Shown here in pieces: positions 6,166 to 48,722 of a DNA stretch of 51,269 bases. The number at the start of each line of letters is the position of its first letter. Position 1 is the first letter of the stretch. Source of the stretch: a phage. The position numbers were made by a program, and so were the translations under genes. The notes beneath the pieces were generated by a model, which saw nothing but the letters and a program-made list of their open reading frames with translations, had not been told where the DNA came from and did not search any database. The stretch is taken from the sequence record PZ445518.1, one strand, 5' to 3'.

Positions 6166-6190
6166 CTGATAGCATAAAAAAACATTGCAC

Positions 6191-6214: not shown

Positions 6215-6242
6215 AGGCCGTTACATTTAACGGCCTTTTTTA
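6215..6242 (+). terminator. terminator-like hairpin immediately upstream of major capsid RBS
   Basis: GGCCGTTA cattt TAACGGCC followed by TTTTTT, which abuts GGAGG. Confidence 0.55.
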
Positions 6243-6255
6243 TGGAGGAAGCAAA

Positions 6256-9906: not shown

Positions 9907-9943
9907 TTCCTGTAAAATCAATCTATCAAATAAATTAATTCCA

Positions 9944-9965
9944 CTTTTAACAAAAAGTGCTATAA
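9944..9965 (+). repeat. conserved 22-bp element, inverted copy in late region
   Basis: CTTTTAACAAAAAGTGCTATAA just upstream of chaperone RBS; on minus strand it is followed after 19 nt by TAGATT. Confidence 0.5.
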
Positions 9966-19476: not shown

Positions 19477-19504
19477 AAAAGGGGGCATAGCCCCCTTTAA
19501 TTTT
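19475..19504. terminator. bidirectional terminator between convergent J-like gene and Cor-like cassette
   Basis: A-tract, GGGGGC ata GCCCCC, T-tract. Confidence 0.7.
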
Positions 19505-20673: not shown

Positions 20674-20698
20674 TACTCCTTAGTTGTTGTTGGCTGCA

Positions 20699-27754: not shown

Positions 27755-28231
27755 TTAGCTATTCGTGCTGTTATCACCTTTGTAGAATCGTCCGCCTGGT
27801 TCGTAGTCTGAATTTTTGACTACGCGCAACATATCGTATTTGTCGCAACGGGTAGTAAGAGGCTTACCGTTAGAATCAAACCGCAGATCTGGACGACAAA
27901 ATGATGCGCGGTATCCTTTGCATCCATTATATTTGTAGTCGTTATGCACCTTTTGTGCTCCAGCGGCTGAAATCATACCACGCTTTCGCCACTGGTTAAC
28001 GACTTGCTGAGATACGCGCAGACGTCGAGCCATAGCAGGAACGCCGCCGTAATACTCGATCAGAATGTCAAGGCGAGATTTCAGGCTTGCTTTTACCTCA
28101 TCTCGCAGGATAAGAAATCCGGTTCGGTGTTTTCGTGGTTTTTTGTCTTTACCTCGTCGCGTTCCGTTGTTACCGTTAATAGTGCGCTTGTCGATCTCAC
28201 CCGTAGATACTGCAATTCGTGCATCTTTCAT
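27755..28231 (-). CDS. HTH DNA-binding protein (putative transcriptional regulator)
   Basis: Helix-turn-helix-like segment GGVPAMARRLRVSQQVVNQWRKRG; first gene of leftward operon from divergent region. Confidence 0.5.
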   Translation of the reverse strand: MKDARIAVSTGEIDKRTINGNNGTRRGKDKKPRKHRTGFLILRDEVKASLKSRLDILIEYYGGVPAMARRLRVSQQVVNQWRKRGMISAAGAQKVHNDYKYNGCKGYRASFCRPDLRFDSNGKPLTTRCDKYDMLRVVKNSDYEPGGRFYKGDNSTNS

Positions 28232-28241
28232 CTAGTCACCT

Positions 28242-28286
28242 CATAGCATTTTTTGTTAAAACAGTTTATTGTAATGAGTCTATTAT
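28242..28286 (+). promoter_or_regulatory. conserved-element promoter cassette (-10 TATTAT) upstream of helicase
   Basis: CATAGCATTTTTTGTTAAAAC, 19 nt, TATTAT. Confidence 0.5.
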
Positions 28287-28318
28287 ATACTCCAAATGGC
28301 ATTTTTTAAAGGTTTAAG

Positions 28319-30316
28319 ATGATTCCAAATATCGAAAAACAAATATCAGCATTAGGCGAGGCAGTAATAAAAAGCATCCAAGAGCGATTCACGGTTGGCA
28401 ATATAGTGCCTTATCCTTATCAGTGCGTTGCGTATGCAGAGATCGCAAAGCGCATGAAAAACTATGAGCATCCTTTCTTTGTTAAGGCTTCTGTATCGGC
28501 TGGCAAAACATTGATGTTTGCGATGGTTGCGGCGCAATGCCGCAAAATGGGATTGAAAATGATGGTCCTTGCTCGCCAGGCTGAAATTGTTGATCAGGAT
28601 TCGGAAGAGATCAGCAATCTTGGCGTGCCAAACTCAATCTATTGCGCCGGACTGAAAACAAAAAGCGCATACTTTCCGATCGTAGTCGGTTCTGAGGGCA
28701 CTGTAGTAAACGGATTGTTTAAGTCGTTAGGTGATTATGTTCCGCACGTTATCGGTATTGATGAATGTCACCAGGTGGATTGGGAGGATCTCGCGGACGC
28801 GATAGAAAATAATGAATCTTACCAGCAGATGACCACTAAGAAGGATTTGCCAGTACTGATTGGAGAAGAACAGCAATTTGATTCCAATGGCGATCCAATG
28901 TTCGGAACAGGGCGCACACAGTACACCGTAATAATCATGGAAATGATGCGCAGGTGTCGCGAGGCATACGGGCACGAATTGCGAATATTCGGCATGACTG
29001 GATCTGAGTTTCGCGGCGTGGTTCCAATACTGGTTGAAGATAAGAACAAAAAGGGATTCTGGCGTGAGCAAGTAACTAACATAGACACAAACTACTTAAT
29101 CAAATTCGGTTCGGTAGTGCCAACAAATTTCGGCGACGTCGGCGACCTGGGGTATGACCTTTCAGAGTTCGAGGCCAGTAGCGAGGACGGCGTTTCAGAC
29201 TTTGACGCTAAAACATTGCGCAAGATGGAAGAAAAGATCCATCAAGACGCAACAATGACACAGAAAATCATGGCTAAAGTCCATGAGATATGCAAAGACA
29301 GGAACGGAGTTTTAGTTACATGCGCAGGGGAAAGGCACTGCAAGGAGGCCGCCGCCGCACTGCCGCCAGGCGTTGAATACAGGATCATAACTGGCAAGAC
29401 TGGAGATAATCAGCGTAAAGAGTGGCTGAGGGAGGCATACGAGGGAAAAGTAAAATACATCTTCCAGGTACAGGCGCTTACCACTGGCGTTAACGTTCCG
29501 TTTTGGGATACTTCGGTAATACTGAGAAAGATAGGATCTCTAACATTGCTTATCCAGCTTTTGGGGCGCGGCATGCGACTGCTTAAGCAATGGCACATTG
29601 AACAGGGATTCAAGAAAAAAGATCATCTTGTATTGGATTTTGCAGGTACTATGGATGAGTTAGGTGATTTGTATTTCGATCCAATCCTTGAGCAAGCGCA
29701 ATTCCAAAAGAGATTTACAAACGGGAAAGAGCCTAAGACTTGTCCGATATGTGGAACGCTAAACAGCTTTTACGCTCGCCGATGTATGCACGTAGACGAT
29801 AACGGGAAGCGATGTGAGCATTTTTGGACTTACAGAATTTGCGAGGACCAGGTAGATCCGAGAACGAAAAAGATAATCAAGCGCGGTTGTGGAACAAAAA
29901 ACGACGTAGTGGCGAGAGTATGCCGTTGTTGCGATATTTCTCTTGTCGATCCTAACGAGAAGTTAAGCGGTAAGCACTACACCAAAAACGATTGGTGCAA
30001 CGTTAAATCTTTCCGCGTTGATATGACGAAAAACCAGAAAGGAATTATTTTTTGCTATGAGCTTGAGGCCAACGGCGATACGTTCAAGGCATACGAAAGA
30101 TTTTTCCCTGAGTCAGAAAGCAACATTTGCCGGACGATATGGAGAAAAATAGCATTGCAGCACATACCGGATCGCAAGATTGCTGGTATGGTGGCGAGCT
30201 ATAGAAATGCTCGTAAAATAATGTCATACGCTCATCACATCATGCCGCCTGTACGCGTAACGCATCGCAAAAACGGCAAAGGTGAGGATAACATTGCAAA
30301 ACGGGAGTTTGTTTAA
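28319..30316 (+). CDS. superfamily 2 DNA helicase with C-terminal zinc-finger region
   Basis: Walker A SVSAGKT, DExH box IDECH, C-terminal CxxC clusters. Confidence 0.8.
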   Translation: MIPNIEKQISALGEAVIKSIQERFTVGNIVPYPYQCVAYAEIAKRMKNYEHPFFVKASVSAGKTLMFAMVAAQCRKMGLKMMVLARQAEIVDQDSEEISNLGVPNSIYCAGLKTKSAYFPIVVGSEGTVVNGLFKSLGDYVPHVIGIDECHQVDWEDLADAIENNESYQQMTTKKDLPVLIGEEQQFDSNGDPMFGTGRTQYTVIIMEMMRRCREAYGHELRIFGMTGSEFRGVVPILVEDKNKKGFWREQVTNIDTNYLIKFGSVVPTNFGDVGDLGYDLSEFEASSEDGVSDFDAKTLRKMEEKIHQDATMTQKIMAKVHEICKDRNGVLVTCAGERHCKEAAAALPPGVEYRIITGKTGDNQRKEWLREAYEGKVKYIFQVQALTTGVNVPFWDTSVILRKIGSLTLLIQLLGRGMRLLKQWHIEQGFKKKDHLVLDFAGTMDELGDLYFDPILEQAQFQKRFTNGKEPKTCPICGTLNSFYARRCMHVDDNGKRCEHFWTYRICEDQVDPRTKKIIKRGCGTKNDVVARVCRCCDISLVDPNEKLSGKHYTKNDWCNVKSFRVDMTKNQKGIIFCYELEANGDTFKAYERFFPESESNICRTIWRKIALQHIPDRKIAGMVASYRNARKIMSYAHHIMPPVRVTHRKNGKGEDNIAKREFV

Positions 30317-30735
30317 TGGCTATAACTGATAAAGGAGATTATCTTGAGTTTTACGAAAGAGATCCAACCGACACGAGAAAGGAAGTTAATCACCAGATAG
30401 ATAGCTTTCAGTGGTTGACTTATGCTCATCCTTATTTGCTAGCTTGGCATACGGTAAACGAGAATGAGAAGTCGAAAGTAACGGCGATGATTGATCAGCA
30501 GTCCGGCTTGGTTAAGGGGGTAAGCGATTTCATCATCCTGATTGGTTCAAACGGAAAATACCCCTTTGCAGCGATTGAGATCAAACGAGTGAATAAATCA
30601 GGCAAGGGGAAAGCATCACCAGTCAGCGATGAACAAAAGGCTTTTTTGCGTCGCGTTCGCAGCTTAGGAGGATTCGCTGCGGTCGCCTACGGATTTAATC
30701 AGTTTAAGTTAGCTATTGAATACATGCTTAAATAG
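30316..30735 (+). CDS. VRR-NUC domain nuclease
   Basis: 139 aa with D-x(n)-E-x-K type block (DFIILIG...AIEIK); coupled to helicase. Confidence 0.6.
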   Translation: MAITDKGDYLEFYERDPTDTRKEVNHQIDSFQWLTYAHPYLLAWHTVNENEKSKVTAMIDQQSGLVKGVSDFIILIGSNGKYPFAAIEIKRVNKSGKGKASPVSDEQKAFLRRVRSLGGFAAVAYGFNQFKLAIEYMLK

Positions 30736-30775
30736 CACTTTTTGTTAAAACTGGCGCGATGGATTGCGCCATAAT
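30730..30775 (+). promoter_or_regulatory. conserved-element promoter cassette (-10 CATAAT) upstream of dam
   Basis: AAATAGCACTTTTTGTTAAAAC (contains stop TAG of VRR-NUC gene), 19 nt hairpin TGGCGCG..GCGCCA, CATAAT. Confidence 0.55.
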
Positions 30776-30812
30776 TCAATAACACGAGATGGCTTTTAAT
30801 AGCGGAGAAATG

Positions 30813-31541
30813 AAAATGGCTAAAGATATTTTAGATAAAGACACCCATGACGCATTTGTTAGCTTTGAGCAGTTGGAGAGAGAAACGTTTATAGGAAATG
30901 CTCTTGCAACTGGAGGCCATTACCAGGCAGTAAAGCCAAATCAATATTATAAGGTAAGCGGCAACCGATACGCTGGAAGCACTACGCCGGACGTTGTGCG
31001 CGATATGTGGAGCACACCTCAAGAGATCGTGGAGTGGATGGAATCAGAATTTGGCGAATACGATCTCGACGCGGCAGCAAGCCAGGAAAACGCAGTTTGC
31101 GAGAAGTTCTATAGCAAGGAAACAAACTGCTTAAAGCGTTGGTGGGGTAGCAACAAGCACGTATGGCTTAACCCGCCGTACAGCAACCCAACTCCATTTA
31201 TCAAGAAAGCAATTGAGCAAATGGAGCACAACAACCAAATTGATGTTTTGTTGCCATCCGACAACTCTACAGCATGGTTTTATGAGGCGCAGAAAAACGC
31301 GGCTGAAATCATCTGGATCACTGGCGAGGTTTACGAAGAGGGGGGAGTGGAATATTCCCGCACCGGAAGAATCGCCTTTGTGTCTGGATTGACTGGCGAG
31401 CCTGTACAGGGCAACAATAAGGGAAGCGTGATTTTTGTCATGCGCAAACTTAAAGAAGGCGAGGAGCAGAAAACGCGATACGTTAAGATCAGCGATATTT
31501 GCCCCTCTGTAACCGAACGCCGCGCGCGCAAACGGAGCTAA
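30813..31541 (+). CDS. dam: DNA N6-adenine methyltransferase
   Basis: NPPY catalytic motif (WLNPPYS) preceded by DLDAAAS SAM-binding-like block; start 30813 or 30819. Confidence 0.75.
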   Translation, partial: KMAKDILDKDTHDAFVSFEQLERETFIGNALATGGHYQAVKPNQYYKVSGNRYAGSTTPDVVRDMWSTPQEIVEWMESEFGEYDLDAAASQENAVCEKFYSKETNCLKRWWGSNKHVWLNPPYSNPTPFIKKAIEQMEHNNQIDVLLPSDNSTAWFYEAQKNAAEIIWITGEVYEEGGVEYSRTGRIAFVSGLTGEPVQGNNKGSVIFVMRKLKEGEEQKTRYVKISDICPSVTERRARKRS

Positions 31542-31545
31542 CACG

Positions 31546-31803
31546 ATGAAAAAAGAGAGAAGCGTTTATTTAAATGAAACTGGCGAGTGGTTGTTATTTC
31601 GCGCTATGGTGTGCGATGCACTTGATAAAAACCCTAACGTGAAAAAGATGATTGATTGCGATCCGTGGGAATTTTCAAGCGCATTAGATATGAGCTTTGA
31701 TGAGACAAGAAAACTCCCTCTTGAAAAATGGCACGAACAAATCAGAAATGATATGCAAGAGTTTGTAGATTCGTGGAATTTTCAGAACGGAATGATCCAC
31801 TAA
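31546..31803 (+). CDS. hypothetical protein
   Basis: 85-aa ORF; stop TAA followed by TAG of conserved element. Confidence 0.45.
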   Translation: MKKERSVYLNETGEWLLFRAMVCDALDKNPNVKKMIDCDPWEFSSALDMSFDETRKLPLEKWHEQIRNDMQEFVDSWNFQNGMIH

Positions 31804-31846
31804 TAGCACTTTTTGTTAAAACGCCCGGCATTTTGTCGGGCATAAT
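31801..31846 (+). promoter_or_regulatory. conserved-element promoter cassette (-10 CATAAT)
   Basis: TAATAGCACTTTTTGTTAAAAC, 19 nt hairpin GCCCGGC..GTCGGGC, CATAAT, then leader box CATCGAAACGAAC. Confidence 0.55.
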
Positions 31847-31872
31847 TATTTCATCGAAACGAACGTGAGGAA

Positions 31873-32058
31873 ATGAAAATGGTAGTATATAGCAAGAAAG
31901 CATTTGACAAGGCGCAACAAGCCGCACGCGAGGCGGTAAAAGGTGGAACGAAAAACAATATGCAGCTTGATTGGGGCGCTGCAATGATTCTACTTCGCGT
32001 TGCATATGGTCACTACCCATTAGAATTTGCGGAGGCATATTATAAGCATGAAGATTGA
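31873..32058 (+). CDS. hypothetical protein
   Basis: 61-aa ORF downstream of promoter cassette 31801-31846. Confidence 0.4.
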   Translation: MKMVVYSKKAFDKAQQAAREAVKGGTKNNMQLDWGAAMILLRVAYGHYPLEFAEAYYKHED

Positions 32059-32290
32059 ACAAGGTAGAGAGGCGGTATGGAATCACGCTAAAGAATGCGG
32101 AATAGCCGACGATATAAAGAAGATCGCGCAATACTTTGATATTGCAGATGTGAGCATAATTAGCGGCGATAAGATGACTTTCCTCAAGGAAAGGCCGCGA
32201 AAAATGGTAAGAGTTCCAGCAGTTCCAACAAAAATTGATTTCAAAGAGGCAATGGCTAAAATCCGAGAGCCTCGCAAATATTATAAATGA
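32048..32290 (+). CDS. hypothetical protein
   Basis: ORF 32027..32290 with internal ATG at 32048. Confidence 0.35.
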   Translation: MKIEQGREAVWNHAKECGIADDIKKIAQYFDIADVSIISGDKMTFLKERPRKMVRVPAVPTKIDFKEAMAKIREPRKYYK

Positions 32291-32384
32291 GGATAGTTAT
32301 CATGTGGCGCTTGTTTGTTCTACCGTTACCCGTTATCATCGCTGTTACAGTTATGTACCATATAGTGATGAGATAGGTGGCAGA

Positions 32385-33500
32385 ATGAAAAATGTAAAAA
32401 TTACAGATGAGCAATTCAAGATCGAACGGGCGGCGGGTAAGACATATAAACAGATCGCTCAAGAGTACGGAATGAATGTGAGAAGCGTCGAGCGTCGCGC
32501 GGCGCGACTTGCAAAGCAAGGCCAGGTATCCACCATTGGAGCGCCTTGTTTTGGCGTTCATGGTGAGTCAGTAATGACTGACAAAGAAGGCAACATAATC
32601 CTAAAGTGGACTAAAACCAGCAAGGATAAAGAGCAATTAGAAGCATTAATGCGCGCAGCAATGGAGGCATTTAGCGAGGAAGTGCCGCGATTAGATCCGG
32701 TTCCATTACAGGAGCGTGACTATAACGAAACGCTTTCCTTGTATCCGATCTTTGACATGCACTTAGGAGCTATGGCCCATAAGCACGAATGCGGCGAAAA
32801 TTGGGATACTGCCACGGCAGAGCGCGTTATGAATAACTTTATCGACTATGCTTTAATGTGCGCACCGGATAGCGAAAAGGCTGTCATCCTGATTGGTGGC
32901 GATATGCTGCATAGCGACGGCCTGGAGGCGGTTACACCTGCAAGCGGTCACGTACTGGATCAAGATAGTCGATATGCAAAATTGGTTTACGTTGCCATCC
33001 GTGCAATGCGACGCGCAATCAATAAAATGTTGTTAAAGCATAAACATGTTGAAGTCCAGATCGTAGAGGGCAATCATGACCAATCAGGAATGATTTGGCT
33101 ACGCGCAGCAATGGCGGCAGCATATGAAAACGAGCCGCGCGTTTACGTTGATGTTTCCCCTCGCGTTGTGCACCACACGCAATACGGAAAAACTTTCCTT
33201 GCGTACCATCACGGGCACACAGTGCGTAAACCGGAGGCTTTGCTAATGATGTGCGCGTCAGATTGGCGGGAGGACTTCGGAAACTCAAAAACGATGTATG
33301 CGCACGTAGGGCACTGGCATCACCAGACCGTGACAGAAACGTCGCTTGGCATCGTTGAGGTGCATAGCACCCTGGCGGCAAAAGACGCATACGCCGCGCG
33401 AGGTGGCTGGAGATCTCGACGCCGTGCGGCGGTTATCATTTACGACAAAGAGCATGGAGAGGTGGGGCGATTTGTTCACTATCCAGAAATGATGAATTGA
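32385..33500 (+). CDS. HTH + calcineurin-like metallophosphoesterase
   Basis: Phosphoesterase motifs D-x-H (FDMHLG), GD (GGDMLHSDG), GNHD, GH-x-H (HVGHWHH); N-terminal HTH-like segment; ATG 32385. Confidence 0.6.
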   Translation: MKNVKITDEQFKIERAAGKTYKQIAQEYGMNVRSVERRAARLAKQGQVSTIGAPCFGVHGESVMTDKEGNIILKWTKTSKDKEQLEALMRAAMEAFSEEVPRLDPVPLQERDYNETLSLYPIFDMHLGAMAHKHECGENWDTATAERVMNNFIDYALMCAPDSEKAVILIGGDMLHSDGLEAVTPASGHVLDQDSRYAKLVYVAIRAMRRAINKMLLKHKHVEVQIVEGNHDQSGMIWLRAAMAAAYENEPRVYVDVSPRVVHHTQYGKTFLAYHHGHTVRKPEALLMMCASDWREDFGNSKTMYAHVGHWHHQTVTETSLGIVEVHSTLAAKDAYAARGGWRSRRRAAVIIYDKEHGEVGRFVHYPEMMN

Positions 33501-33547
33501 TGAATTTTTATTTAAATCAATGACAAATTAAATCAAAAACTTGCAAG

Positions 33548-33580
33548 GGGGCGGCGTTTGTCGCCTCTTTTTTTTGTTTA
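33548..33580 (+). terminator. terminator-like hairpin followed by T8
   Basis: GGGGGCGGCG tttgt CGCCTC (imperfect stem) followed by TTTTTTTT. Confidence 0.45.
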
Positions 33581-33645
33581 ATTTTTTACCATGTACGTTT
33601 ATCATGCGGTCAATATATTGACTTTAATTAATATGGAGAATAAAA

Positions 33646-33861
33646 ATGAAAGATTTTATTAACGCAGCTACCGCCGGATCTGGCGGTTCATCTATCGCAA
33701 GCGCCGCTACAGGGCAGTTAACCATTGCTATTGCCAGCTTTGTTTTAATGGCTGCATTCGGTGCATGGGGCGCTTACCTTCGCTGGCGTGATAGTAAAAA
33801 ATTCCACGAGGCGATCGAAAAAGGTGATATTCAAAAAGCTATTGAAATCAGGGGCAAGTAA
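33646..33861 (+). CDS. holin (putative)
   Basis: 71 aa, hydrophobic transmembrane core, charged C-terminus; directly upstream of endolysin. Confidence 0.6.
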
Positions 33862-34352
33862 TGAGCATAAAGAACAAGGTAGCGGCTGCGGCCTTTGGCG
33901 TTGCGGTTGCCTTGACTTCTCCACTTCTTGAAGAGATCGAAGGGGTAAGATACAAGCCATACAAAGATATTGCTGGAGTATGGACGGTTTGCGCAGGAAT
34001 CACCGGACCAGATGTTATCCTGGGGAAAACGTACACTAAAAAAGAGTGTGATGCTTTGTTGGCTAAGCATATCCAGGTTGCTAAAAAGGAAGTTGACAAG
34101 CAAGTTAAGGTTGACATTCCTGATAGTATGCGTGCAGCAATGTACTCATTCACTTACAATGCAGGTGTGGGAGCTTTCAGAAATTCAACAATGCTGAAAC
34201 TCATAAACCAGGGGAAATTAAACGAGGCTTGCGATCAGCTTTATCGTTGGACTTATTACCATAACCAAAAAACAGGAAAGCGCGAGAAGTCTAAAGGCTT
34301 ACTTAACAGGCGCAAGGTCGAATACAAATATTGCACAATGGATCTGAAATGA
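33861..34352 (+). CDS. SAR endolysin (phage lysozyme, T4 lysozyme-like fold)
   Basis: N-terminal signal-anchor-release-type hydrophobic stretch; catalytic E-x8-D-x5-T ([16 protein letters not shown]). Confidence 0.8.
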
Positions 34353-34744
34353 TGAAGAATTTTTTACTTACACCAATCGCAATGGCGGTGATCTTGTCTG
34401 GATGTTCAAGCGTTACGCCACTGACCGGATTAATCGGCAGTAAGCCGGAAATCACAGCACAGGCTGGAGCGGAGAACGTGAAGCAGACAGTTGGCATTAC
34501 AGCAAAGCAGGACGCCAGCACAAAACAGGAAACCACAATAAAGGAATCTGCGGTTGACAAGGTGGACACGTCCAGCAAGAAGGATTTCACAACATCAACC
34601 ATTCAGGCCAATACCATCAAGGCAGACAAAATTCAGGTCGTGCAGGGTAATAACGGCAGATGGTACGATCCGGTAATCATATGCGTGGTTGTGTTAATTG
34701 TGCTGATTTGTCTTTACTGGAGAGAAAAGAAAAAGGAGGCTTAA
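34349..34744 (+). CDS. unimolecular spanin (u-spanin)
   Basis: N-terminal lipoprotein signal with lipobox LSGC plus single C-terminal TM helix ([16 protein letters not shown]); follows endolysin as in phage T1. Confidence 0.65.
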
Positions 34745-34760
34745 TGCCTCCTTTATTTTT
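34731..34760. terminator. bidirectional terminator between lysis cassette and convergent early genes
   Basis: AGGAGGC ttaat GCCTCCT flanked by A-tract and T-tract; overlaps u-spanin stop. Confidence 0.7.
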
Positions 34761-34984
34761 ATGCGTCGGGCCACATATGAGTTTCGTTTGTTGGCTTGTT
34801 CGATTCGTCGTACTGCCTTACTTCAATGCTGCAAGTGTCGCCGTACATTTCTGCAATCTTGCGCTCATTTTCAAACGCCGATTGCTCACTCCAGCCTGAA
34901 TCCTTATCGTAAACTGTCGGGATTTCAGAAGAAGATCCATTTGCATGATTGTATACGCGAACTACTAAAAACTTGCTGGACATG
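34759..34984 (-). CDS. hypothetical protein
   Basis: ATG at 34984 after AAAAGGA RBS; downstream of promoter cassette. Confidence 0.45.
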
Positions 34985-35020
34985 ATTTTTCCTTTTTGGT
35001 TGGTTCGTTTCGATGAAACA

Positions 35021-35066
35021 AATATACCCGACACAATGTCGGGAGTTTTAACAAAAAATGCTATTC
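35021..35066 (-). promoter_or_regulatory. conserved-element promoter cassette (-10 TATATT)
   Basis: Minus strand: GAATAGCATTTTTTGTTAAAAC, hairpin CCCGAC..GTCGGG, TATATT, leader CATCGAAACGAAC. Confidence 0.5.
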
Positions 35067-35255
35067 CATACGCTTTACTGTAACCAATAACACACCATCA
35101 TCATTGCATAAAACGTGTTCATTGGTGCTAAAAGCGCGCATATCTGAATAAAGCAGCGTAAGTAACGCATGAATAAGATCCTCATGTGATATTGAATTTA
35201 CGGCGCAGTGCTTCAAGATCTTGTCTATTAGCTTTTGCCTGGAACAATTCATCAT
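35061..35255 (-). CDS. hypothetical protein
   Basis: Stop TAG lies inside conserved element; overlaps 35182..35577 in another frame, so start uncertain. Confidence 0.3.
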   Translation of the reverse strand: MMNCSRQKLIDKILKHCAVNSISHEDLIHALLTLLYSDMRAFSTNEHVLCNDDGVLLVTVKRME

Positions 35256-35577
35256 CGCCCATCTCCCCTATTCTAGCCATATCCCTGATCCAGTCGTTGC
35301 GCATACCATCCAGGCTATACAATTCGAATCCGAAAGGCCGCTTTGACGATCCTTTGGACCAGTATTTTCCGCAGACTCCATCTATATAACCAGCCGTCAT
35401 CATTCTTGCGCAAAATTCCTTAGATGCAAGGCTGGCGAACATTCGCGGCGTAAGTCCGGCGGCCCGTGCGAGCCGCTCACATTCTCTATGCTGATAGATA
35501 AATTTGGCTATGTGCTGCCTGTTAAACCAATCGTATGACTCACACCATTTATACAGATCAAGCAAAAACATAATCAT
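35182..35577 (-). CDS. hypothetical protein
   Basis: 131-aa ORF; start overlaps upstream gene stop. Confidence 0.45.
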   Translation of the reverse strand: MIMFLLDLYKWCESYDWFNRQHIAKFIYQHRECERLARAAGLTPRMFASLASKEFCARMMTAGYIDGVCGKYWSKGSSKRPFGFELYSLDGMRNDWIRDMARIGEMGDDELFQAKANRQDLEALRRKFNIT

Positions 35578-37154
35578 CCCAGCAGTATTGGATTGACAAA
35601 AATAACACCATTAATCACACAAACATAATTTCTTTCTTCCAGCATTGGCAGTAAGTGCCCTTCTATCCTTTTCATTACGCCAGCCTGACCAACGAAAGGT
35701 TTTACCTTTCTCGCTGATTCGTACAGGGCGCGGATATTCAGAATACCTTTATTAGCCTTGCCGTGCCTCGTGATCAATTCAATCAATTTACCCATTTCAG
35801 CATCATCACCAGCATAACCAGAAGCATTGGCGGCGCTAATGTATGTTTTGCTCAATTCCTGAAACATGATCAACGCCTCTTGCATTGTTTCCACGTCGAT
35901 CTCTTTCGACTTCTGCGGGTATCCGGCAGGATTAAACCAGTTACGGATAACATGCAGGACGGAAGCAAGCCTGATCACCTGTTTATCCATTTTACCCAGC
36001 GCACCGCGTAACATTGTATGAGAATACTTTCCTCCGTCTGCAAGATGCGGTTCCATATCCTGGCGAGCAATGTTGAGCACTCGCATAGCTGAACGGCTTA
36101 TTTTCAGCGATATATTTGATTCGCTCATGATGTTATGCACCAATTGATAATATTGGGCTTTCAATTCAGAATCCACCGCCTCATAGGTAGAATCACCATT
36201 TTCATCAATGAATGAGCGACGGCCTAAGAATGATTCCTCTCGGACCAACAAAAAACGCTCACTAACACCGATGCCTCGCGATCCAGCGTCCATGATTCCG
36301 CTTATCGTTTCATCCTGGGCTATGACGCTCATACATCCAAGCGCGCGAAAACTCATATTATTGTCAGCATTAGCACGGGCAATTGATACGTGACCATTAT
36401 CCCACGCCTTAAGCACTAACTCACTGTTAGTCTTCCTTTCGCTATTTGCATAGGTCAAGCCTAACAGACTGTTAATACTTGTTGCTTCATCAGATATTAC
36501 GGCAAAGTTACCTTGCTTGTTGTTGATTTTCGCCAAGCCTTCTGGAGTTGTATCTGAAACAGGAAAAGTTATATCACACATTTTTTCCAGCTTTTCCTCC
36601 AGATCCTCTTTTTCCTGGTATAGAGATTCCATATCAGCGCCGGATCTTTCGCTTTTCATCTCCTTTGCAAGACCTGCCAGCTTTGCCTGTATTTTCTTTC
36701 TTTCCTTGCGGCGTTGCTCGTTGATCTTCTCAACTTCCGCAATCATCGGAGCAATAGCCATGCTGTTGATCGCAGATTTACCAGTTGACGGCGGCTGGCT
36801 TGTAACGACGTAAAGCGCAGTCGGCTGATCGGTTCCGTGATAGTCAACCGTAAAGCGTCCAAGCATAGCGGCAGAAATGCAGCCGATAAAGTGCATGTAA
36901 GCCGATGATTCAGGGAATTGAACGGATCGCGCAATGCTGCGTGATAACTTGCCGACAACATCAATATCATTACCAAGAGAAATAACGGGGTAGCGATCGT
37001 GACCGCTATTCACATCCTTTACGTCGCCCCAAAAGCTGGACGACTGGCGATAGCCGTTAGCCTGAATTGATACGCGAACTGGCGAAAGGTTCTGGCTTTC
37101 AGCCATAGCGATTATTTGTTGTGGAGTTAATTTGTTCGTTTCTAATGAAAACAT
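35574..37154 (-). CDS. P-loop NTPase, DUF3987 / primase-C-terminal-like replication protein (putative)
   Basis: 526 aa; Walker A-like PPSTGKS; size and placement among replication genes. Confidence 0.5.
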   Translation of the reverse strand: MFSLETNKLTPQQIIAMAESQNLSPVRVSIQANGYRQSSSFWGDVKDVNSGHDRYPVISLGNDIDVVGKLSRSIARSVQFPESSAYMHFIGCISAAMLGRFTVDYHGTDQPTALYVVTSQPPSTGKSAINSMAIAPMIAEVEKINEQRRKERKKIQAKLAGLAKEMKSERSGADMESLYQEKEDLEEKLEKMCDITFPVSDTTPEGLAKINNKQGNFAVISDEATSINSLLGLTYANSERKTNSELVLKAWDNGHVSIARANADNNMSFRALGCMSVIAQDETISGIMDAGSRGIGVSERFLLVREESFLGRRSFIDENGDSTYEAVDSELKAQYYQLVHNIMSESNISLKISRSAMRVLNIARQDMEPHLADGGKYSHTMLRGALGKMDKQVIRLASVLHVIRNWFNPAGYPQKSKEIDVETMQEALIMFQELSKTYISAANASGYAGDDAEMGKLIELITRHGKANKGILNIRALYESARKVKPFVGQAGVMKRIEGHLLPMLEERNYVCVINGVIFVNPILLG

Positions 37155-37182
37155 TCGTTAGCTTCTCCTTTGTGGGCCGTAA

Positions 37183-37230
37183 ATTTTAACGGCCCAATAC
37201 TACCCCGTTTTGTCAAAAAGTGCTATTTGA
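37183..37230 (-). promoter_or_regulatory. conserved-element promoter cassette (-10 TAAAAT)
   Basis: Minus strand: AAATAGCACTTTTTGACAAAA, 19 nt, TAAAAT inside hairpin GGGCCGT..ACGGCCC. Confidence 0.45.
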
Positions 37231-38143: not shown

Positions 38144-38174
38144 CGTTTATTTCTCCTTTCGTTTCGGTGAAGTG

Positions 38175-38220
38175 ATTATGCCAGGTTTTTACACCTGGCT
38201 TTTAACAAAAAGTGCTATTT
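38175..38220 (-). promoter_or_regulatory. conserved-element promoter cassette (-10 CATAAT)
   Basis: Minus strand: AAATAGCACTTTTTGTTAAAA, 19 nt hairpin GCCAGGT..ACCTGGC, CATAAT, leader CACCGAAACGAAAGGAG. Confidence 0.55.
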
Positions 38221-38935: not shown

Positions 38936-39160
38936 TCAAAACGGAAAACAGCGCGGACAACCAGGATCGAAATCGCATCCACAATCATTAACAATCATAG
39001 TGGGATCTGCAAATATTGCGCTTGATTCAAGATCCATATCCATATCACCTAAAGCCTCATCAAGACTCTTAATTTTATATGCCACTTCAAGCGCCGCCTC
39101 TTTATTTAGTCCGGCATCTTCTGCCATTTGAAGGCGCTCAAAAAATCCTTCTTGACTCAT
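38936..39160 (-). CDS. hypothetical protein (acidic, Cys-rich C-terminus)
   Basis: 74-aa ORF; C-terminal CGCDFDPGCPRC. Confidence 0.45.
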   Translation of the reverse strand: MSQEGFFERLQMAEDAGLNKEAALEVAYKIKSLDEALGDMDMDLESSAIFADPTMIVNDCGCDFDPGCPRCFPF

Positions 39161-39863: not shown

Positions 39864-40060
39864 TAGATGATCTCCATGTATGTTTCAAAGCCATTTAACT
39901 TGAACAGGCCGTTTTCACATTTGCGAACGTTCCAAGTTAGCCCTGAGTGGTACGCCTCCATATCATCAAGGTCAATGGTGATTTCAGCACCTTTCTTAAA
40001 CAAACATTTTTCGTGAGACTTGTCGCGCTTAACAACTTTAACATCAACCTGATTTTCCAT
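39863..40060 (-). CDS. hypothetical protein
   Basis: 65-aa ORF with GAGGA RBS downstream of promoter cassette. Confidence 0.45.
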   Translation of the reverse strand: MENQVDVKVVKRDKSHEKCLFKKGAEITIDLDDMEAYHSGLTWNVRKCENGLFKLNGFETYMEII

Positions 40061-40091
40061 CTTTAAATCCTCGTTTGTTGTCGATGCGCTT

Positions 40092-40139
40092 ACTATACCA
40101 ATCAGCAGCGCATCGTTTTTAACAAAAAGTGCTATTTAG
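40092..40139 (-). promoter_or_regulatory. conserved-element promoter cassette (-10 TATAGT in hairpin loop)
   Basis: Minus strand: AAATAGCACTTTTTGTTAAAAA, then 8-bp stem GATGCGCT..AGCGCATC enclosing TATAGT. Confidence 0.5.
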
Positions 40140-41361: not shown

Positions 41362-41396
41362 TTACTATCTCCTGAGCGGTTCGTTTCGATGTGTGT

Positions 41397-41979: not shown

Positions 41980-42008
41980 TTGACACATTAAATAGCATTA
42001 TTGATAAT
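41980..42008 (+). promoter_or_regulatory. sigma70-type promoter for rightward early operon
   Basis: TTGACA, 17-nt spacer, GATAAT; about 30 nt upstream of ATG 42038. Confidence 0.6.
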
Positions 42009-42037: not shown

Positions 42038-42502
42038 ATGAGCGAGCAATCATTAACTGACACGCTGCGCCGTGCAGCTATTATGCTGGCTAATGGCGAG
42101 GAAGAGGCGATCAAGATTCCTGACGCGTATTTGCAGGTCCACATGTTCGGCAAGAAGTCGGCAAGCAATCCGGCGGCCTACATTCGCCAGATCATGAGTC
42201 GAGTTCCAGAAGTCGCCGAGCGGGGGCGCGTATCCGTTACCCGTGGAGTTTACGGGCCGGAAGATGAAAACTTCGGTAGCACTTTCTACGAGGTGCGCAT
42301 TGTTGAAGGACGTCGCAAGGTTTACAACAAAGAGGCACTGGAAAGGGCAGTACGCCAGGCTAAGCGCAAGGTTGCAGAGGCGATCATTGATATGTCACCA
42401 AACCTAGCAAACTATGCGCCGGAAGAGTATGAAACATTATCAAAGGCCGTCGCTGACTTTCACGCGATGATCAAAAAAACTTTCCTGGAGGATGAGCAAT
42501 GA
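42038..42502 (+). CDS. hypothetical protein (first rightward early gene)
   Basis: AGGAGG RBS; downstream of TTGACA-N17-GATAAT promoter. Confidence 0.5.
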   Translation: MSEQSLTDTLRRAAIMLANGEEEAIKIPDAYLQVHMFGKKSASNPAAYIRQIMSRVPEVAERGRVSVTRGVYGPEDENFGSTFYEVRIVEGRRKVYNKEALERAVRQAKRKVAEAIIDMSPNLANYAPEEYETLSKAVADFHAMIKKTFLEDEQ

Positions 42503-42771
42503 AAAAGGCGTTAATCGGTGTTTTGGTGGCAATGGCATTCCTGACCGGATGTAAAGAAGATGGCGCGCATGTTGGCAATGTGCAGATGGCTAACCCTGGC
42601 GATGACTACAACGTAAGGGAGCTATTCACCGCTGACGGATGCACTGTTTACCGATTCTATGACGATCGCACTGTTTACTTCACCAACTGCAAGGGAACTA
42701 CTAGCTGGGAAGTGTCGAAAAGCAATGGCAAAGGCACGAAGACAGAACATATGACCGTCGAGACAAAATAG
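42499..42771 (+). CDS. lipoprotein (second putative exclusion-type lipoprotein)
   Basis: Signal peptide with lipobox LTGC (MKKALIGVLVAMAFLTGC); stop TAG inside conserved element. Confidence 0.6.
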   Translation: MKKALIGVLVAMAFLTGCKEDGAHVGNVQMANPGDDYNVRELFTADGCTVYRFYDDRTVYFTNCKGTTSWEVSKSNGKGTKTEHMTVETK

Positions 42772-42811
42772 CACTTTTTGTTAAAACTCAAAAACGATAA
42801 CCAGGCATAAT
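42766..42811 (+). promoter_or_regulatory. conserved-element promoter cassette (-10 CATAAT) driving structured leader
   Basis: AAATAGCACTTTTTGTTAAAAC (contains stop TAG of lipoprotein gene), 19 nt, CATAAT. Confidence 0.55.
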
Positions 42812-43013
42812 ACACACATAGACGGGCGGCAAGGATTGCTGCGGGAGAGGAGCGACGCAGGGGCTTGATCGAAGTGTCAGGATTCCCAACCGTGAGGCCA
42901 GAACTATCACACTCGCCACCAGGCAGAACGCTAGATAGGTCACTGAACTGAGGCTACCGACGAAGTGAAGCCCGTCACCAAAGATTAAACGGTTATTTAT
43001 GTGAAAGGGGTTA
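42812..43013 (+). ncRNA. GC-rich structured leader / candidate small RNA
   Basis: About 200 nt without convincing ORF; downstream of promoter cassette; 7-bp closing stem GACGGGC (42821-42827) with GCCCGTC (42970-42976). Confidence 0.3.
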
Positions 43014-43196
43014 ATGATGGATAAGATCATCAAAATGAGCGAAGTCAAGCCGGGAATGATGGTTAAATTTGCTGGCAAATATCGCCTAGTGCTGGATAAC
43101 TGCCGCAAAGAGAACATTCTTACAATTCGTGTAAATGGCAAGGCGCAGCTATTCGCCCCTAACGCAGATATTGACGTTGAAGTTAGAATTAAGTAA
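43014..43196 (+). CDS. hypothetical protein
   Basis: 60-aa ORF after long structured leader; RBS AAAGGGG. Confidence 0.45.
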   Translation: MMDKIIKMSEVKPGMMVKFAGKYRLVLDNCRKENILTIRVNGKAQLFAPNADIDVEVRIK

Positions 43197-43211
43197 TTAG
43201 GAGAAATCACC

Positions 43212-44565: not shown

Positions 44566-44604
44566 CACTTTTTGTTAAAACTCAAATGTGGGGCCAGGTA
44601 TAAT
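44560..44604 (+). promoter_or_regulatory. conserved-element promoter cassette (-10 TATAAT)
   Basis: AAATAGCACTTTTTGTTAAAAC, 18 nt, TATAAT flanked by GGCC..GGCC. Confidence 0.6.
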
Positions 44605-44634
44605 GGCCTCACTTTCAACGAAGGAGATAAAACG

Positions 44635-45857: not shown

Positions 45858-46015
45858 CTTGGTTGCTTTTAATCTTTGTCACAAGTTACAACTCCGCAGC
45901 TATTGAGTCGCAGGAGTTCCACGGCGAATCAAGATGCCAGGAAGCGCGAAAGCAAGTTATTCTCCACATGTCAGATAGTGGGAAGGATGTAACAGCGTTA
46001 TGCGTTCGTAAATAG
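45854..46015 (+). CDS. small hydrophobic Cys-containing protein (53 aa)
   Basis: ATG overlaps upstream stop (ATGA); stop TAG inside conserved element; paralog of 44413..44565. Confidence 0.35.
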   Translation: MTWLLLIFVTSYNSAAIESQEFHGESRCQEARKQVILHMSDSGKDVTALCVRK

Positions 46016-46056
46016 CACTTTTTGCAAAAAACAGATCATCGGGCTTGCTGTATAGT
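46010..46056 (+). promoter_or_regulatory. conserved-element promoter cassette (-10 TATAGT in hairpin loop)
   Basis: AAATAGCACTTTTTGCAAAAAAC, stem GGGCTT..AAGCCC enclosing TATAGT, leader CATCAACAACAAACGAGGA. Confidence 0.5.
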
Positions 46057-46087
46057 AAGCCCATCAACAACAAACGAGGATTAAATC

Positions 46088-48356: not shown

Positions 48357-48647
48357 ATGGCAAACAAAACTTACCGCAAACTACTGGTTAACGCTTTTGA
48401 AAACATCGCGCAGTGTAACAAGTGGAACGACTCTAAACACTCGCCAATCACAATGAAGCGCGCCGGATTCAAAAATACTCGTTCATGGGCGCGAGCTTTC
48501 GCAGCTTGCTATATGCCGGATGGCGGACTAGGGGTGATGAACGATTTTTTGATCAACATGATAGAGGAAGCGGCGCGAGAGGATCGACCGCTGACACAGC
48601 GAGATTTTGACGGCTTCGCGCGCGATGAGCTTTACTATCTGAGTTAA
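48357..48647 (+). CDS. hypothetical protein
   Basis: 96-aa ORF; stop TAA immediately followed by TAG of conserved element. Confidence 0.5.
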   Translation: MANKTYRKLLVNAFENIAQCNKWNDSKHSPITMKRAGFKNTRSWARAFAACYMPDGGLGVMNDFLINMIEEAAREDRPLTQRDFDGFARDELYYLS

Positions 48648-48690
48648 TAGCACTTTTTGTTAAAACTTCCGCAAGGGCATTTGGTAAAGT
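48645..48690 (+). promoter_or_regulatory. conserved-element promoter cassette (-10 TAAAGT in hairpin loop)
   Basis: TAATAGCACTTTTTGTTAAAAC, stem AAGGGCA..TGCCCTT enclosing TAAAGT. Confidence 0.45.
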
Positions 48691-48722
48691 GCCCTTATTG
48701 AAGCGAAACAGAGGAAAGCGCA

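What the first reader, a model, noticed from the sequence alone, without database searches (positions are those of the whole stretch)
31822..31866. Hairpins that sequester the -10 hexamer, plus a conserved leader box (CATCGAAACGAAC / CATCAACAACAAACGAGGA) downstream of the cassettes
In several cassettes the -10 hexamer lies in the loop or 3' arm of a stable hairpin (40092-40139, 46010-46056, 48645-48690, 37183-37230, 44590-44610). A second conserved block follows between -10 and RBS: CATCGAAACGAAC at 31852-31864, and on the minus strand at 35008-35020 and 41378-41390 (variant 38160-38172); CATC(A/G)ACAACAAACGAGGA at 46057-46078, 40065-40090 and 20676-20698. The stems may be 5' mRNA stability determinants, processing sites, or DNA structures affecting promoter opening.
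Basis: seen in the sequence. Interest (0 to 1): 0.5.

Follow-up and report, generated by a model that had tools for sequence, protein, structure and literature searches.

The report
Promoter cassettes with embedded RNA hairpins
In this T1-like phage almost every early gene block is preceded by a compact cassette (21-base box, variable hairpin, -10 element, short A/C-rich leader); the hairpins are real and evolutionarily maintained, but they lie upstream of the predicted transcription start, so they most likely act on RNA reading through from the gene before, much like the promoter/stem-loop cassettes already known in T4-like phages.

Summary
The window is a T1-like phage (100% identical to Shigella phage JK16 over 8 kb). 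Fifteen copies of the known 21-nt Drexlerviridae repeat are present. Thirteen are followed at a fixed 17-19 nt (18 in most) by a -10 hexamer (G-14, TATAAT-like). A C(-1)A(+1)TCGAAACGAA leader, SD and ATG follow, with a 5'UTR of about 25 nt. Stable hairpins occupy the variable spacer (class A) or enclose the -10 in their loop (class B). They are far more stable than shuffles and keep pairing through compensatory changes in orthologs. Interior mismatches are G·T rather than A·C, which points to folding of the sense strand, i.e. RNA. The 5' arm always lies upstream of the predicted start. The hairpin therefore cannot be a 5' stabiliser of the cassette's own mRNA. It exists only in read-through RNA from upstream. 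Best reading: composite promoter/stem-loop cassettes like T4-type PeSLs. The stem-loop terminates, attenuates or caps upstream transcripts. The focal hairpin is terminator-like, and its T1 and TLS orthologs are annotated terminators. Most hairpins lack a U-tract, so canonical termination is not general. The "leader box" is the start site plus an unstructured, U-poor 5'UTR that is consensus across the family. Interest is moderate.

The parts
31802..31822 (+). 21-nt box AATAGCACTTTTTGTTAAAAC of the focal cassette (positions -51..-31). Its TAG/TAA overlap the stop codon of the upstream gene.
   Evidence: There are 15 copies at <=3 mismatches against 0 expected. It is the same repeat as the TLS/T1/Rtp 21-nt direct repeat (PMC11447400). 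The upstream stop codon is the box's own TAG in 29 of 61 cassettes.
31823..31841 (+). Focal class A hairpin: GCCCGGCA / TTT / TGTCGGGC, 8 bp with one G·U, dG -14.1. It is followed by AUAAUUAUUU.
   Evidence: The terminator scan flags it as terminator-like. Ortholog covariation: 100% paired, 3 of 6 pairs changed on both sides, 0/500 shuffles. The T1 ortholog is annotated as a terminator at 39998-40024. The TLS ortholog is T62, directly after DR12.
31841..31846 (+). -10 hexamer CATAAT, 18 nt after the box. Its first base is the last base of the hairpin's 3' arm.
   Evidence: A [TC]ANNNT hexamer sits at this exact offset in 168 of 245 unique box instances. G-14 is 86% and T-10 is 80%, and neither was used as a filter.
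31852..31864 (+). Leader box CATCGAAACGAAC: C(-1), predicted start A31853, then the initial transcribed sequence.
31853..31881 (+). Predicted 26-nt 5'UTR with SD GAGG (31867-31870) and the likely start codon ATG 31879-31881.
   Evidence: The family's median 5'UTR is 25 nt, with A 48% and T 11% over +1..+14.
30752..30771 (+). Class A hairpin of cassette 30731 (upstream of dam), dG -12.1.
   Evidence: The T1 ortholog is annotated as a terminator at 38973-39001.
35027..35043 (-). Class A hairpin of cassette 35065 (CCCGACA/TGTCGGG), followed by UAUAUUUGUU. It is a near-copy of the focal cassette.
38180..38199 (-). Class A hairpin of cassette 38219 (GCCAGGT/ACCTGGC), dG -14.2.
37173..37196 (-). Class B hairpin of cassette 37227, with the -10 TAAAAT in the loop, dG -15.6.
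40082..40115 (-). Class B hairpin of cassette 40136 (core GATGCGCT/AGCGCATC), with the -10 TATAGT between the core arms; the 3' arm reaches +1..+4.
44588..44612 (+). Class B hairpin of cassette 44561 (GTGGGGCCA/TGGCCTCAC), with the -10 TATAAT in the loop.
46041..46062 (+). Class B hairpin of cassette 46011 (core GGGCTT/AAGCCC), with the -10 TATAGT between the core arms; the 3' arm ends at -1.
48673..48696 (+). Class B hairpin of cassette 48646 (AAGGGCA/TGCCCTT), with the -10 TAAAGT in the loop.
   Evidence: Covariation: 95.9% paired, 6 of 7 pairs changed on both sides, 0/500 shuffles.
35003..35015 (-). Leader box CATCGAAACGAAC; predicted start at 35014.
41379..41391 (-). Leader box CATCGAAACGAAC; predicted start at 41390. 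This cassette is first in its operon and has only a weak hairpin.
38157..38169 (-). Leader box variant CACCGAAACGAAA; predicted start at 38168.
40068..40086 (-). Leader CATCGACAACAAACGAGGA; predicted start at 40085.
46062..46080 (+). Leader CATCAACAACAAACGAGGA; predicted start at 46063.

Best explanation
Each cassette is a compact composite of a gene end and a gene start. The stop codon of the upstream gene lies in or next to the 21-nt box. The box sits at -51..-31 of a promoter. That promoter has a good -10 (often with G-14 or TG) but no -35 at normal spacing. Transcription is inferred to start at the A of 'CAT(C)', 7 nt after the -10. This gives a roughly 25-nt, U-poor, A/C-rich, essentially unstructured leader that runs straight into the SD. 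That start plus leader is the 'leader box'.

The hairpin uses the only sequence-free positions of this promoter. These are the 18-nt spacer (class A), or part of the spacer plus the C-rich discriminator (class B, with the -10 in the loop). It folds in sense-strand RNA. Its 5' arm lies upstream of the start site. Only transcripts that began at an upstream promoter and read through the preceding gene therefore contain the full hairpin. The cassette's own transcripts begin after or inside the 3' arm and escape it.

On read-through RNA the hairpin defines or protects the 3' end of the upstream message and reduces spill-over into the next unit. Where the -10 and discriminator give a U-rich tail, it acts as a real intrinsic terminator. 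This applies to the focal 31823-31841 and to 35027-35043. Elsewhere it would act as an attenuator or a 3'-exonuclease block.

Shown: the architecture, the fixed spacing, hairpin excess, covariation and strand asymmetry. Inferred: the start site, and what the hairpin does to read-through RNA.
For: Fixed architecture over 168 unique cassettes. The window's hairpins total -158 kcal/mol against -78 +/- 7.7 for shuffles. Of 101 non-redundant cassettes, 71% fold at <= -8 kcal/mol, with a median z of -2.8. They fall into two positional classes: 25 class A, 49 class B and 27 with no hairpin or another placement.

Compensatory evolution is seen in both classes. Interior stem mismatches are G·T 22 against A·C 6; shuffles give 39:84; p=4.6e-7.

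The tool's terminator scan flags 31823-41 and 35043-27. The T1 GenBank record annotates three cassette hairpins as rho-independent terminators, including the ortholog of the focal one. The TLS supplementary table lists T62 directly after DR12 and T57 directly after DR10. T57 is a class B hairpin with a U-tract.

Cassettes with no co-directional upstream gene tend to have weak hairpins or none: 41441 and its orthologs at -5.3 to -5.8, 28242 at -1.9, and Rtp 45919 at -1.2. Internal cassettes have a median of -13.3.

The experimentally tested analogue is the T4-type PeSL. Its stem-loops sit between -35 and -10 or overlap the -10, contain G-T pairs, and one terminated as well as rrnB T1 in a lacZ assay (PMC2839356).
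Against: Most hairpins lack a U-tract. Class A has a mean of 3.3 T in the 8 nt after the stem, and only 20% have >=5. Class B has a mean of 1.1 T. The discriminator is no more T-rich in class A than in hairpin-less cassettes (p=0.81). Canonical intrinsic termination therefore cannot be the general function, and the alternative roles (attenuation, 3'-end protection) are untested.

No 5' or 3' end mapping of any T1-like phage was found. The start site is inferred from consensus geometry alone.

The operon-first versus internal contrast rests on about three independent loci. T1's helicase cassette is operon-first and still carries a 9-bp inverted repeat around its -10 (group 4). Cassette 42767 has an upstream co-directional gene but no hairpin.
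Confidence: 0.55

Rival explanations
1. 5'-end stabiliser or processing element of the cassette's own mRNA. Transcription would start upstream of the hairpin, for example from a promoter inside the box, so that each mRNA begins with a protective stem-loop.
For: The hairpins fold in the sense strand and lie close to the 5' side of each gene. TGTTAAAAC in the box resembles an extended -10 (sequence).
Against: The last position of that putative hexamer (the base after TAAAA) is C in 72% and T in only 3% of 168 cassettes. The essential T-7 is therefore missing. A far better -10 sits at a fixed 18 nt downstream, followed by C(-1)A(+1) at the canonical distance. The constant 25-nt distance from that start to the ATG fits a short leader.
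Confidence: 0.07
2. DNA-level structure. The inverted repeat extrudes as a cruciform or non-template-strand hairpin in supercoiled or melted DNA. It would either present the -10 single-stranded to sigma70 (class B) or alter the geometry between box and -10 (class A), and so tune promoter opening.
For: In 49 of 101 cassettes the -10 lies in the loop, and many stems end exactly at -1. Hairpin-form promoters exist elsewhere, for example for the phage N4 virion RNA polymerase (own knowledge). One operon-first promoter (T1 36444) keeps an inverted repeat.
Against: G·T mismatches outnumber A·C 22:6, so the opposite strand would carry A·C mismatches and a two-strand cruciform is disfavoured. Stems of 5-9 bp with loops of up to 17 nt (median 8 in class B) are energetically implausible for extrusion (own knowledge). 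Hairpin position varies while the box-to-(-10) spacing is rigid. Class A does not expose the -10.
Confidence: 0.08
3. Target of a factor rather than an autonomous RNA element. The conserved box (as RNA) plus the variable hairpin would form a boxA/boxB-like (nut-like) site, or a site for a phage or host endoribonuclease, on read-through transcripts. This would modify RNA polymerase or cleave the polycistronic RNA into gene-sized units.
For: A conserved linear motif is followed by a structure-only hairpin. Class A loops are often GNRA-like, e.g. GAAA, GAGA and GCAA. The box contains AU-rich single-stranded stretches that fit loose RNase E preferences (own knowledge).
Against: The distance from box to hairpin is not fixed: 0-3 nt in class A and 6-12 nt in class B. 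The box is rigidly spaced to the -10, which points to a DNA-level promoter role. There is no Rfam match. No antiterminator homolog was looked for.
Confidence: 0.12
4. Historical by-product. Ancestral terminators, or recombination scars of mobile promoter cassettes, persist without present function. The leader box is conserved only because cassettes copy each other.
For: Cassettes 31802 and 35065 are near-identical from box to leader. Homology blocks against a relative about 78% identical begin exactly at cassette edges: 42766, 44560, 46010, 35004, 38141 and 40057.
Against: Pairing is kept through both-side changes and through wholesale stem replacement in orthologs, which requires selection on structure. 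The leader consensus recurs in non-orthologous cassettes of Webervirus, Rtpvirus and Tunavirus.
Confidence: 0.08

Closest known systems
PeSLs (promoter-early stem-loops) of T4-like phages phi1/RB49, PST and nt-1 (Arbiol et al. 2010, PMC2839356; Comeau et al. 2014, PMC4122927)
   Same: Both are repeated intergenic cassettes in the order upstream stop codon, promoter, stem-loop, SD, ATG. In both, the stem-loop most often lies between the upstream promoter element and the -10, or overlaps the -10. Stems are frequently G-run/C-run and contain G-T pairs. Both sit at junctions of mosaic gene blocks. The proposed role is termination or attenuation of transcription coming from upstream.
   Different: This is a different phage family (Drexlerviridae siphoviruses). 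The promoter is not a canonical sigma70 -35/-10 pair. Instead a 21-nt box with TTGNTA lies 22 nt from the -10, where about 17 is normal. Most stem-loops lack a U-tract. No reporter data exist here. Sequence homology to PeSLs was neither tested nor expected.
21-nt intergenic direct repeats of phage TLS, also seen in T1, Rtp and Rogue1 (German et al. 2024, PMC11447400)
   Same: It is the same element (aaATAGCACnnnTTGnTAAAA), in the same orientation, at the same ~76 nt upstream of start codons.
   Different: That paper treats the repeat alone and lists its function as an open question. It called only three sigma70-like promoters. It listed terminators T62 and T57 next to DR12 and DR10 without linking them. 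The fixed -10, the hairpin classes and the leader consensus described here are not in that text.
Rho-independent terminators annotated in the phage T1 genome record (NC_005833)
   Same: Three annotated terminators (38973-39001, 39998-40024, 41980-42007) are class A cassette hairpins. The second is the ortholog of the focal hairpin.
   Different: Class B hairpins (the majority) are not annotated and lack U-tracts. The record does not annotate the overlapping promoter.
5' stem-loop mRNA stabilisers (ompA-type) and RNase III sites between T7 early genes
   Same: All are intergenic RNA structures that shape mRNA fate in a polycistronic phage or bacterial transcript.
   Different: These hairpins lie upstream of the predicted start, so they are not at the 5' end of the cassette's own mRNA. 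Stems of 5-9 bp are too short for RNase III (own knowledge).
Activator-dependent phage promoters that lack a -35, e.g. T4 MotA/AsiA middle promoters
   Same: Both have a good -10 plus a conserved phage-specific upstream box in place of a -35. The box core TTTGCTAAA resembles the MotA box TTTGCTTTA (own knowledge; a lead only).
   Different: The box is centred near -41, not -30. No MotA or AsiA homolog was looked for. This concerns the box, not the hairpins.

Membership tests
PeSL-type composite promoter/stem-loop cassette | Repeated intergenic motif containing a sigma70-type early promoter | tested here: inconclusive
   The -10 is strong and at a fixed position. No -35 lies at 16-18 nt; TTGNTA is 22 nt away, and the simple promoter scan finds only 1 of 13 cassettes. 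Promoter activity is not testable here.
PeSL-type composite promoter/stem-loop cassette | Stable stem-loop placed within the promoter (between the upstream element and the -10, or overlapping the -10) | tested here: met
   Of 101 non-redundant cassettes, 25 are class A and 49 class B; 71% fold at <= -8 kcal/mol.
PeSL-type composite promoter/stem-loop cassette | Flanked by the upstream stop codon and the downstream SD and start codon | tested here: met
   In 52 of 61 cassettes with a co-directional upstream ORF, the stop codon lies in or within 3 nt of the box. The ATG is about 25 nt after the predicted start.
PeSL-type composite promoter/stem-loop cassette | Stem-loop terminates or attenuates upstream transcription | not testable with these tools
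   There is only indirect support: terminator-like tails at 2 window cassettes and the T1/TLS annotations. A U-tract is absent in most.
PeSL-type composite promoter/stem-loop cassette | Located at boundaries of shuffled gene modules | tested here: met
   7 of 14 homology blocks against PP532814 start at a cassette edge, while cassettes cover about 4% of the region. There was no control for ordinary intergenic boundaries.
Canonical intrinsic (rho-independent) terminator | G+C-rich stem with a short loop, followed immediately by a U-rich tract | tested here: not met
   The feature is met for the focal hairpin (6 T of 10) and for 35027-43. It is not met as a class: >=5 T of 8 in 20% of class A and 8% of class B. 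Class B loops have a median of 8 nt and reach 17.
5'-UTR stabilising stem-loop | Hairpin lies within a few nt of the 5' end of the transcript it protects | tested here: not met
   The 5' arm lies at -31..-17, upstream of the -10 and of the predicted +1. The start site itself is inferred, not measured.
Drexlerviridae 21-nt direct repeat (TLS DR family) | aaATAGCACnnnTTGnTAAAA, intergenic, in the direction of transcription, ~76 nt upstream of the start codon | tested here: met
   The box-to-ATG distance is 72-84 nt in the window cassettes with a called start.
Hairpin-form (single-stranded) promoter, N4 vRNAP or Frpo type | Promoter recognised as an extruded DNA hairpin with conserved stem and loop features | tested here: not met
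   Stem sequences, loop sizes (3-17 nt) and positions all vary. The G·T/A·C asymmetry disfavours extrusion of both strands. Extrusion itself is not testable here.

The most novel reading that the evidence does not exclude
The cassettes form a genome-wide 'origin-of-transcript discriminator'. Each promoter starts inside or just after its own hairpin. Locally initiated mRNAs are therefore hairpin-free, while read-through RNAs carry the box RNA plus the hairpin. A phage or host factor then reads this difference (termination, cleavage, antitermination or decay). Such a factor might be the Cro/YdaS-like HTH protein encoded at 27755-28231, or a nut-like RNA-binding partner. This would set the early-to-middle timing of 10-18 units per genome. 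It would also explain both the 21-nt repeat, whose function the TLS authors list as open, and the hairpins as one system.
Probability: 0.15. Interest if true: 0.6.

Novelty: new variant of a known kind. Interest (0 to 1): 0.38.

Why it matters
T1-like phages (Drexlerviridae) are common laboratory contaminants and phage-therapy candidates. Their transcription programme is essentially unmapped. The most recent genome paper on the group found only three sigma70-like promoters and asked what the 21-base repeats do. The anchored architecture described here gives a testable answer. It predicts exact start sites and 3' ends for about a dozen units per genome. It also suggests that, as in T4-like phages, repeated promoter/stem-loop cassettes both insulate neighbouring transcription units and serve as joints for swapping genes. 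If confirmed, the cassettes would be ready-made compact terminator-plus-promoter-plus-leader parts. The finding does not overturn any concept.

Tried and rejected
1. Column-wise covariation across 101 paralogous cassettes showed no fixed register (best z 2.7). The hairpins are positioned individually, so this test is uninformative.
2. A naive ungapped substitution test over whole ortholog groups was confounded by register shifts and stem replacement.
3. Restricting to close pairs gave only modest signal. Of 4 double changes 3 were compensatory, 30 of 54 single changes kept pairing, and the partner co-change rate was 12.9% against 5.4%.
4. RNAalifold on the MAFFT alignment of the focal group gave no structure, because of a 1-nt loop indel. 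This was solved by trimming and re-aligning (A2) and counting pairs on that alignment.
5. U-tract enrichment after the stems was not found. 'All are intrinsic terminators' is therefore rejected.
6. The 'insulator' idea held that the hairpin keeps the SD accessible in read-through RNA. SD/AUG unpaired probability was 0.506 native against 0.490 with the spacer shuffled (p=0.26), so it is not supported.
7. TGTTAAAAC in the box as an extended -10 is rejected, because T at the last position occurs in only 3%.
8. Rfam gave no hits, over the whole window at gathering threshold and over 42700-43250 at E<=1.
9. No tRNAs were found.
10. The literature searches found no TSS or transcriptome data for Drexlerviridae. 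Either may contain relevant remarks.
11. The search for related loci with the 61-aa downstream protein gave only 4 loci.
12. The long leader after cassette 42767 is not unusually structured (z +1.1).

Full report
Identity and context. Window 28000-36000 is 100% identical to Shigella phage JK16 (Drexlerviridae) and 96-99% identical to many E. coli T1-like phages. The 'cassettes' of the finding are copies of a 21-nt box, AATAGCACTTTTTGTTAAAAC. There are 15 copies at <=3 mismatches against 0 expected. This is the intergenic 21-base direct repeat that German et al. 2024 described for TLS, T1, Rtp and Rogue1. They list its function among the open questions for T1-like phages (PMC11447400).

Checking the observation. 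The leader strings exist. CATCGAAACGAAC is exact at 31852-31864(+), 35003-35015(-) and 41379-41391(-). A 2-mismatch variant lies at 38157-38169(-). No shuffle reached 5 matches. CATC(G/A)ACAACAAACGAGGA is exact at 40068-40086(-) and 46062-46080(+). The third copy claimed at 20676-20698 is only a loose relative.

The hairpins are also real. Folding the 40 nt after each box gives a summed MFE of -158 kcal/mol. Dinucleotide shuffles give -78 +/- 7.7, and 11 of 15 cassettes have z < -2. Exact arms are listed.

Anatomy. I anchored 245 unique box instances on the box. They came from the window, T1 and 120 IMG/VR loci. A [TC]ANNNT hexamer sits at exactly one offset in 168 of them, 18 nt after the 21-mer. 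In the resulting profile, several positions that were not used as filters are strongly conserved:
- G-14 at 86%.
- T-10 at 80%.
- C-1 at 74%.
- A+1 at 88%.
- The positions after +1, with consensus T-C-G-A-A-A-C-g-A-A.

The cassette therefore reads, in order:
- the box at -51..-31;
- an 18-nt variable spacer;
- an extended-(-10)-like element;
- a C-rich discriminator;
- the CAT start.

The ATG follows at a median 25 nt from the predicted start. Positions +1..+14 are 48% A and 11% T, and the first 45 nt of the predicted transcripts are essentially unstructured, with a mean MFE of -3.0. Among 101 non-redundant cassettes (<80% identity), CATCGAAACGAA[ACG] occurs 15 times. It is present in non-orthologous cassettes of Klebsiella Webervirus phages and of Rtp. 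The 'leader box' is therefore the family consensus for the start site, the initial transcribed sequence and the 5'UTR. Within the window it is reinforced by near-identical paralogous cassettes such as 31802 and 35065.

The TTGNTA inside the box lies 22 nt from the -10, which is too far for a normal -35. The alternative that TGTTAAAAC is itself an extended -10 fails, because the base at its last position is T in only 3% of cassettes.

The hairpins are selected structures. Of 101 non-redundant cassettes, 71% fold at <= -8 kcal/mol, with a median z of -2.8. They fall into two positional classes. In 25 cassettes (class A) the stem fills the spacer and its 3' arm ends at -13..-9. In 49 cassettes (class B) the -10 lies in the loop and the 3' arm is the discriminator, often ending exactly at -1 or extending a few nt into the leader. 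The other 27 have no stable hairpin or an atypical one.

Orthologous cassettes keep the hairpin while the stem sequence changes. For the focal hairpin, 9 distinct orthologs pair in 54 of 54 cells. Three of 6 pairs changed on both sides (G:C to A:U, C:G to A:U, G:C to C:G). No shuffle of 500 reached the observed values, and slid registers reach at most 48%. More distant orthologs replace the stem outright: AATCCA/TGGATT in Rtp and CCCGC/GCGGG in TLS.

For the 48646-type class B hairpin, 14 sequences pair in 95.9% of cells. Six of 7 pairs changed on both sides, with 0/500 shuffles. Five of those 14 were added because their loop and leader sequences are similar, not because they share a downstream gene.

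Which strand and which molecule. I called stems with Watson-Crick seeds only and tabulated interior mismatches. This gave 22 G·T against 6 A·C. Shuffles give 39:84, and the binomial p is 4.6e-7. The structure is therefore selected in the sense strand as a single strand. This fits RNA and argues against a two-strand cruciform or an antisense RNA.

Consequence for mechanism. Every 5' arm lies upstream of the -10 and of the predicted +1. The cassette's own transcript therefore cannot contain the hairpin. Only RNA that started further upstream and read through the preceding gene can contain it. That gene's stop codon is usually the TAG or TAA of the box itself, in 52 of 61 cases within 3 nt. It leaves a role at the 3' side of the upstream message.

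For the focal cassette the terminator reading is well supported. The stem is 8 bp at -14.1 kcal/mol, followed by AUAAUUAUUU, and the scan flags it. The T1 ortholog is annotated as a rho-independent terminator at 39998-40024. The TLS ortholog is terminator T62, immediately after DR12. TLS T57, directly after DR10, is a class B hairpin with the -10 in its loop and a true U-tract. The cassette's own transcripts would start inside its 3' arm and so bypass it.

As a class, however, the hairpins are not canonical terminators. Only 20% of class A and 8% of class B have >=5 T in the 8 nt after the stem. Class A discriminators are no more T-rich than those of hairpin-less cassettes (p=0.81). By contrast, the late-region intergenic hairpins and the operon-end terminators at 33545-70, 34732-54 and 39291-307 carry long T-runs, except the convergent-junction hairpin at 19476-19503. 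For most cassettes the likely roles are attenuation of read-through, protection of the 3' end, or both. These are inferences.

One trend supports a read-through role. Cassettes with no co-directional upstream gene mostly have weak hairpins or none. These include 41441 and its orthologs, 28242, and Rtp 45919. The contrast rests on about three independent loci and has exceptions.

Comparison with known systems. The closest described system is the PeSL of T4-like phages. PeSLs are repeated intergenic cassettes ordered stop codon, AT-rich region, sigma70 promoter, stem-loop, SD and ATG. [quoted passage not shown] One stem-loop terminated as efficiently as rrnB T1 in a reporter assay. The cassettes mediate modular gene shuffling (PMC2839356, PMC4122927).

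The T1-like cassettes match this layout. They also sit at mosaic junctions. Against a relative about 78% identical (PP532814), 7 of 14 homology blocks begin exactly at a cassette edge: 42766, 44560, 46010, 35004, 38141, 40057 and one more. They differ in phage family, in promoter type (a 21-nt box instead of a -35 at 17 nt) and in the general lack of U-tracts. I therefore file them as working like PeSLs, a new variant of that kind, not as homologous members.

Some pieces are already in databases or papers. The repeat is described in the TLS paper. A few of the hairpins are annotated as terminators in the T1 and TLS records. I did not find the combined architecture, the two hairpin classes, their covariation or the leader consensus in the texts I could read. 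I could not read the T1 and Rtp genome papers.

Rivals. A DNA-level role, with the -10 presented in a loop, is disfavoured. The strand asymmetry, the short stems with large loops, and the variable hairpin position against the rigid box-to-(-10) spacing all argue against it. A factor-dependent RNA site (nut-like, or a cleavage site) is not excluded, but the box-to-hairpin distance is not fixed. A neutral by-product is contradicted by the compensatory changes. A modelled 'SD insulator' effect was not found.

Verdict. The feature is a conserved regulatory architecture of moderate interest. It gives concrete, cheap experimental predictions for a phage family whose transcription map is missing.

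Noticed in passing
window 9912-9964 (- strand); T1 (L121) 18850 (-): A box in reverse orientation lies inside the late (structural) region, between the major tail protein gene and the next gene. It has a -10 (TAGATT, 9920-9925) at the normal 18-nt spacing and a predicted start at A9913. The transcript would be only about 40 nt (ACAGGAAUGAAAAAAGGGGCGCAACGCCCCUUGUUUUAC). It would end at the reverse face of the terminator that follows the tail gene. The arrangement is conserved in T1, PP532814 and an IMG/VR contig (group 9). It may be a small antisense or regulatory RNA.
   Followed up: partly
window 6166-6210 (- strand): A second reverse-oriented box lies in the late region. The hexamer at the -10 position is TATCAG, with no T at -7, and there is no hairpin. 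It is probably not an active promoter. The box pairs with an upstream GATAGCAT to form a long-range stem next to the terminator at 6220-6245.
   Followed up: no
window 1567-1587 (+); T1 (L121) ~8360-8385: Box variants (AATAGCACTAATTGCTAAAAA in the window; AATAGCACTAAATGTTAAAC in T1) occur in the late region without a -10 at the canonical spacing. The window copy follows the terminase large subunit stop codon and precedes a classical terminator. The T1 copy sits directly in front of the RBS of the small terminase gene. The box is therefore not always part of the promoter layout described here.
   Followed up: no
all cassettes, e.g. window 31801-31806, 42769-42771: The upstream gene's stop codon is usually supplied by the box. 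It is the TAG of ATAGCAC in 29 of 61 cassettes, a TAA 2-3 nt before it in 16, and the TAA of TTGNTAAAA in 6. The box thus closes two of the three reading frames.
   Followed up: yes
window 35004, 38141, 40057, 42766, 44560, 46010 versus PP532814 (L128): Homology blocks with a relative about 78% identical begin exactly at cassette edges, with unrelated DNA on the other side. This suggests that genes are swapped by recombination between cassettes, as proposed for PeSLs. There was no control for ordinary intergenic boundaries.
   Followed up: partly
window 41980-42008 (+) and 28282-28310 (-): Near-consensus sigma70 promoters are present. TTGACA-17-GATAAT (11 of 12) lies ahead of the first rightward early genes at 42038-42771. 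TTTAAA-17-TATAAT lies ahead of the Cro/YdaS-like HTH gene at 27755-28231. They correspond in position to TLS P01 and P57. They may be the immediate-early promoters that come before box-dependent transcription.
   Followed up: partly
window 42767-43013 (+): Cassette 42767 has no hairpin. About 200 nt of G+C-rich sequence follow before the next annotated gene in the JK16 record (window 43014-43196). The stretch is not unusually structured (z +1.1) and has no Rfam match. A 158-aa ORF on the opposite strand overlaps it.
   Followed up: partly
window 31873-31881: The gene after the focal cassette is listed from ATG 31873. The SD (GAGG, 31867-31870) is only 2 nt from that codon and 8 nt from ATG 31879. 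The family-typical 25-26-nt leader also points to 31879 as the real start.
   Followed up: partly
window versus MK962751 (JK16): The coordinate offset between the window and the JK16 record is 26769 at window 28000 and 26184 at window 42038. The record (51854 bp) therefore lacks 585 bp, relative to the window, somewhere between window 36000 and 42038. It is nevertheless 585 bp longer than the window overall (51269 bp), so it must also hold DNA that the window does not include, such as a terminal repeat.
   Followed up: no
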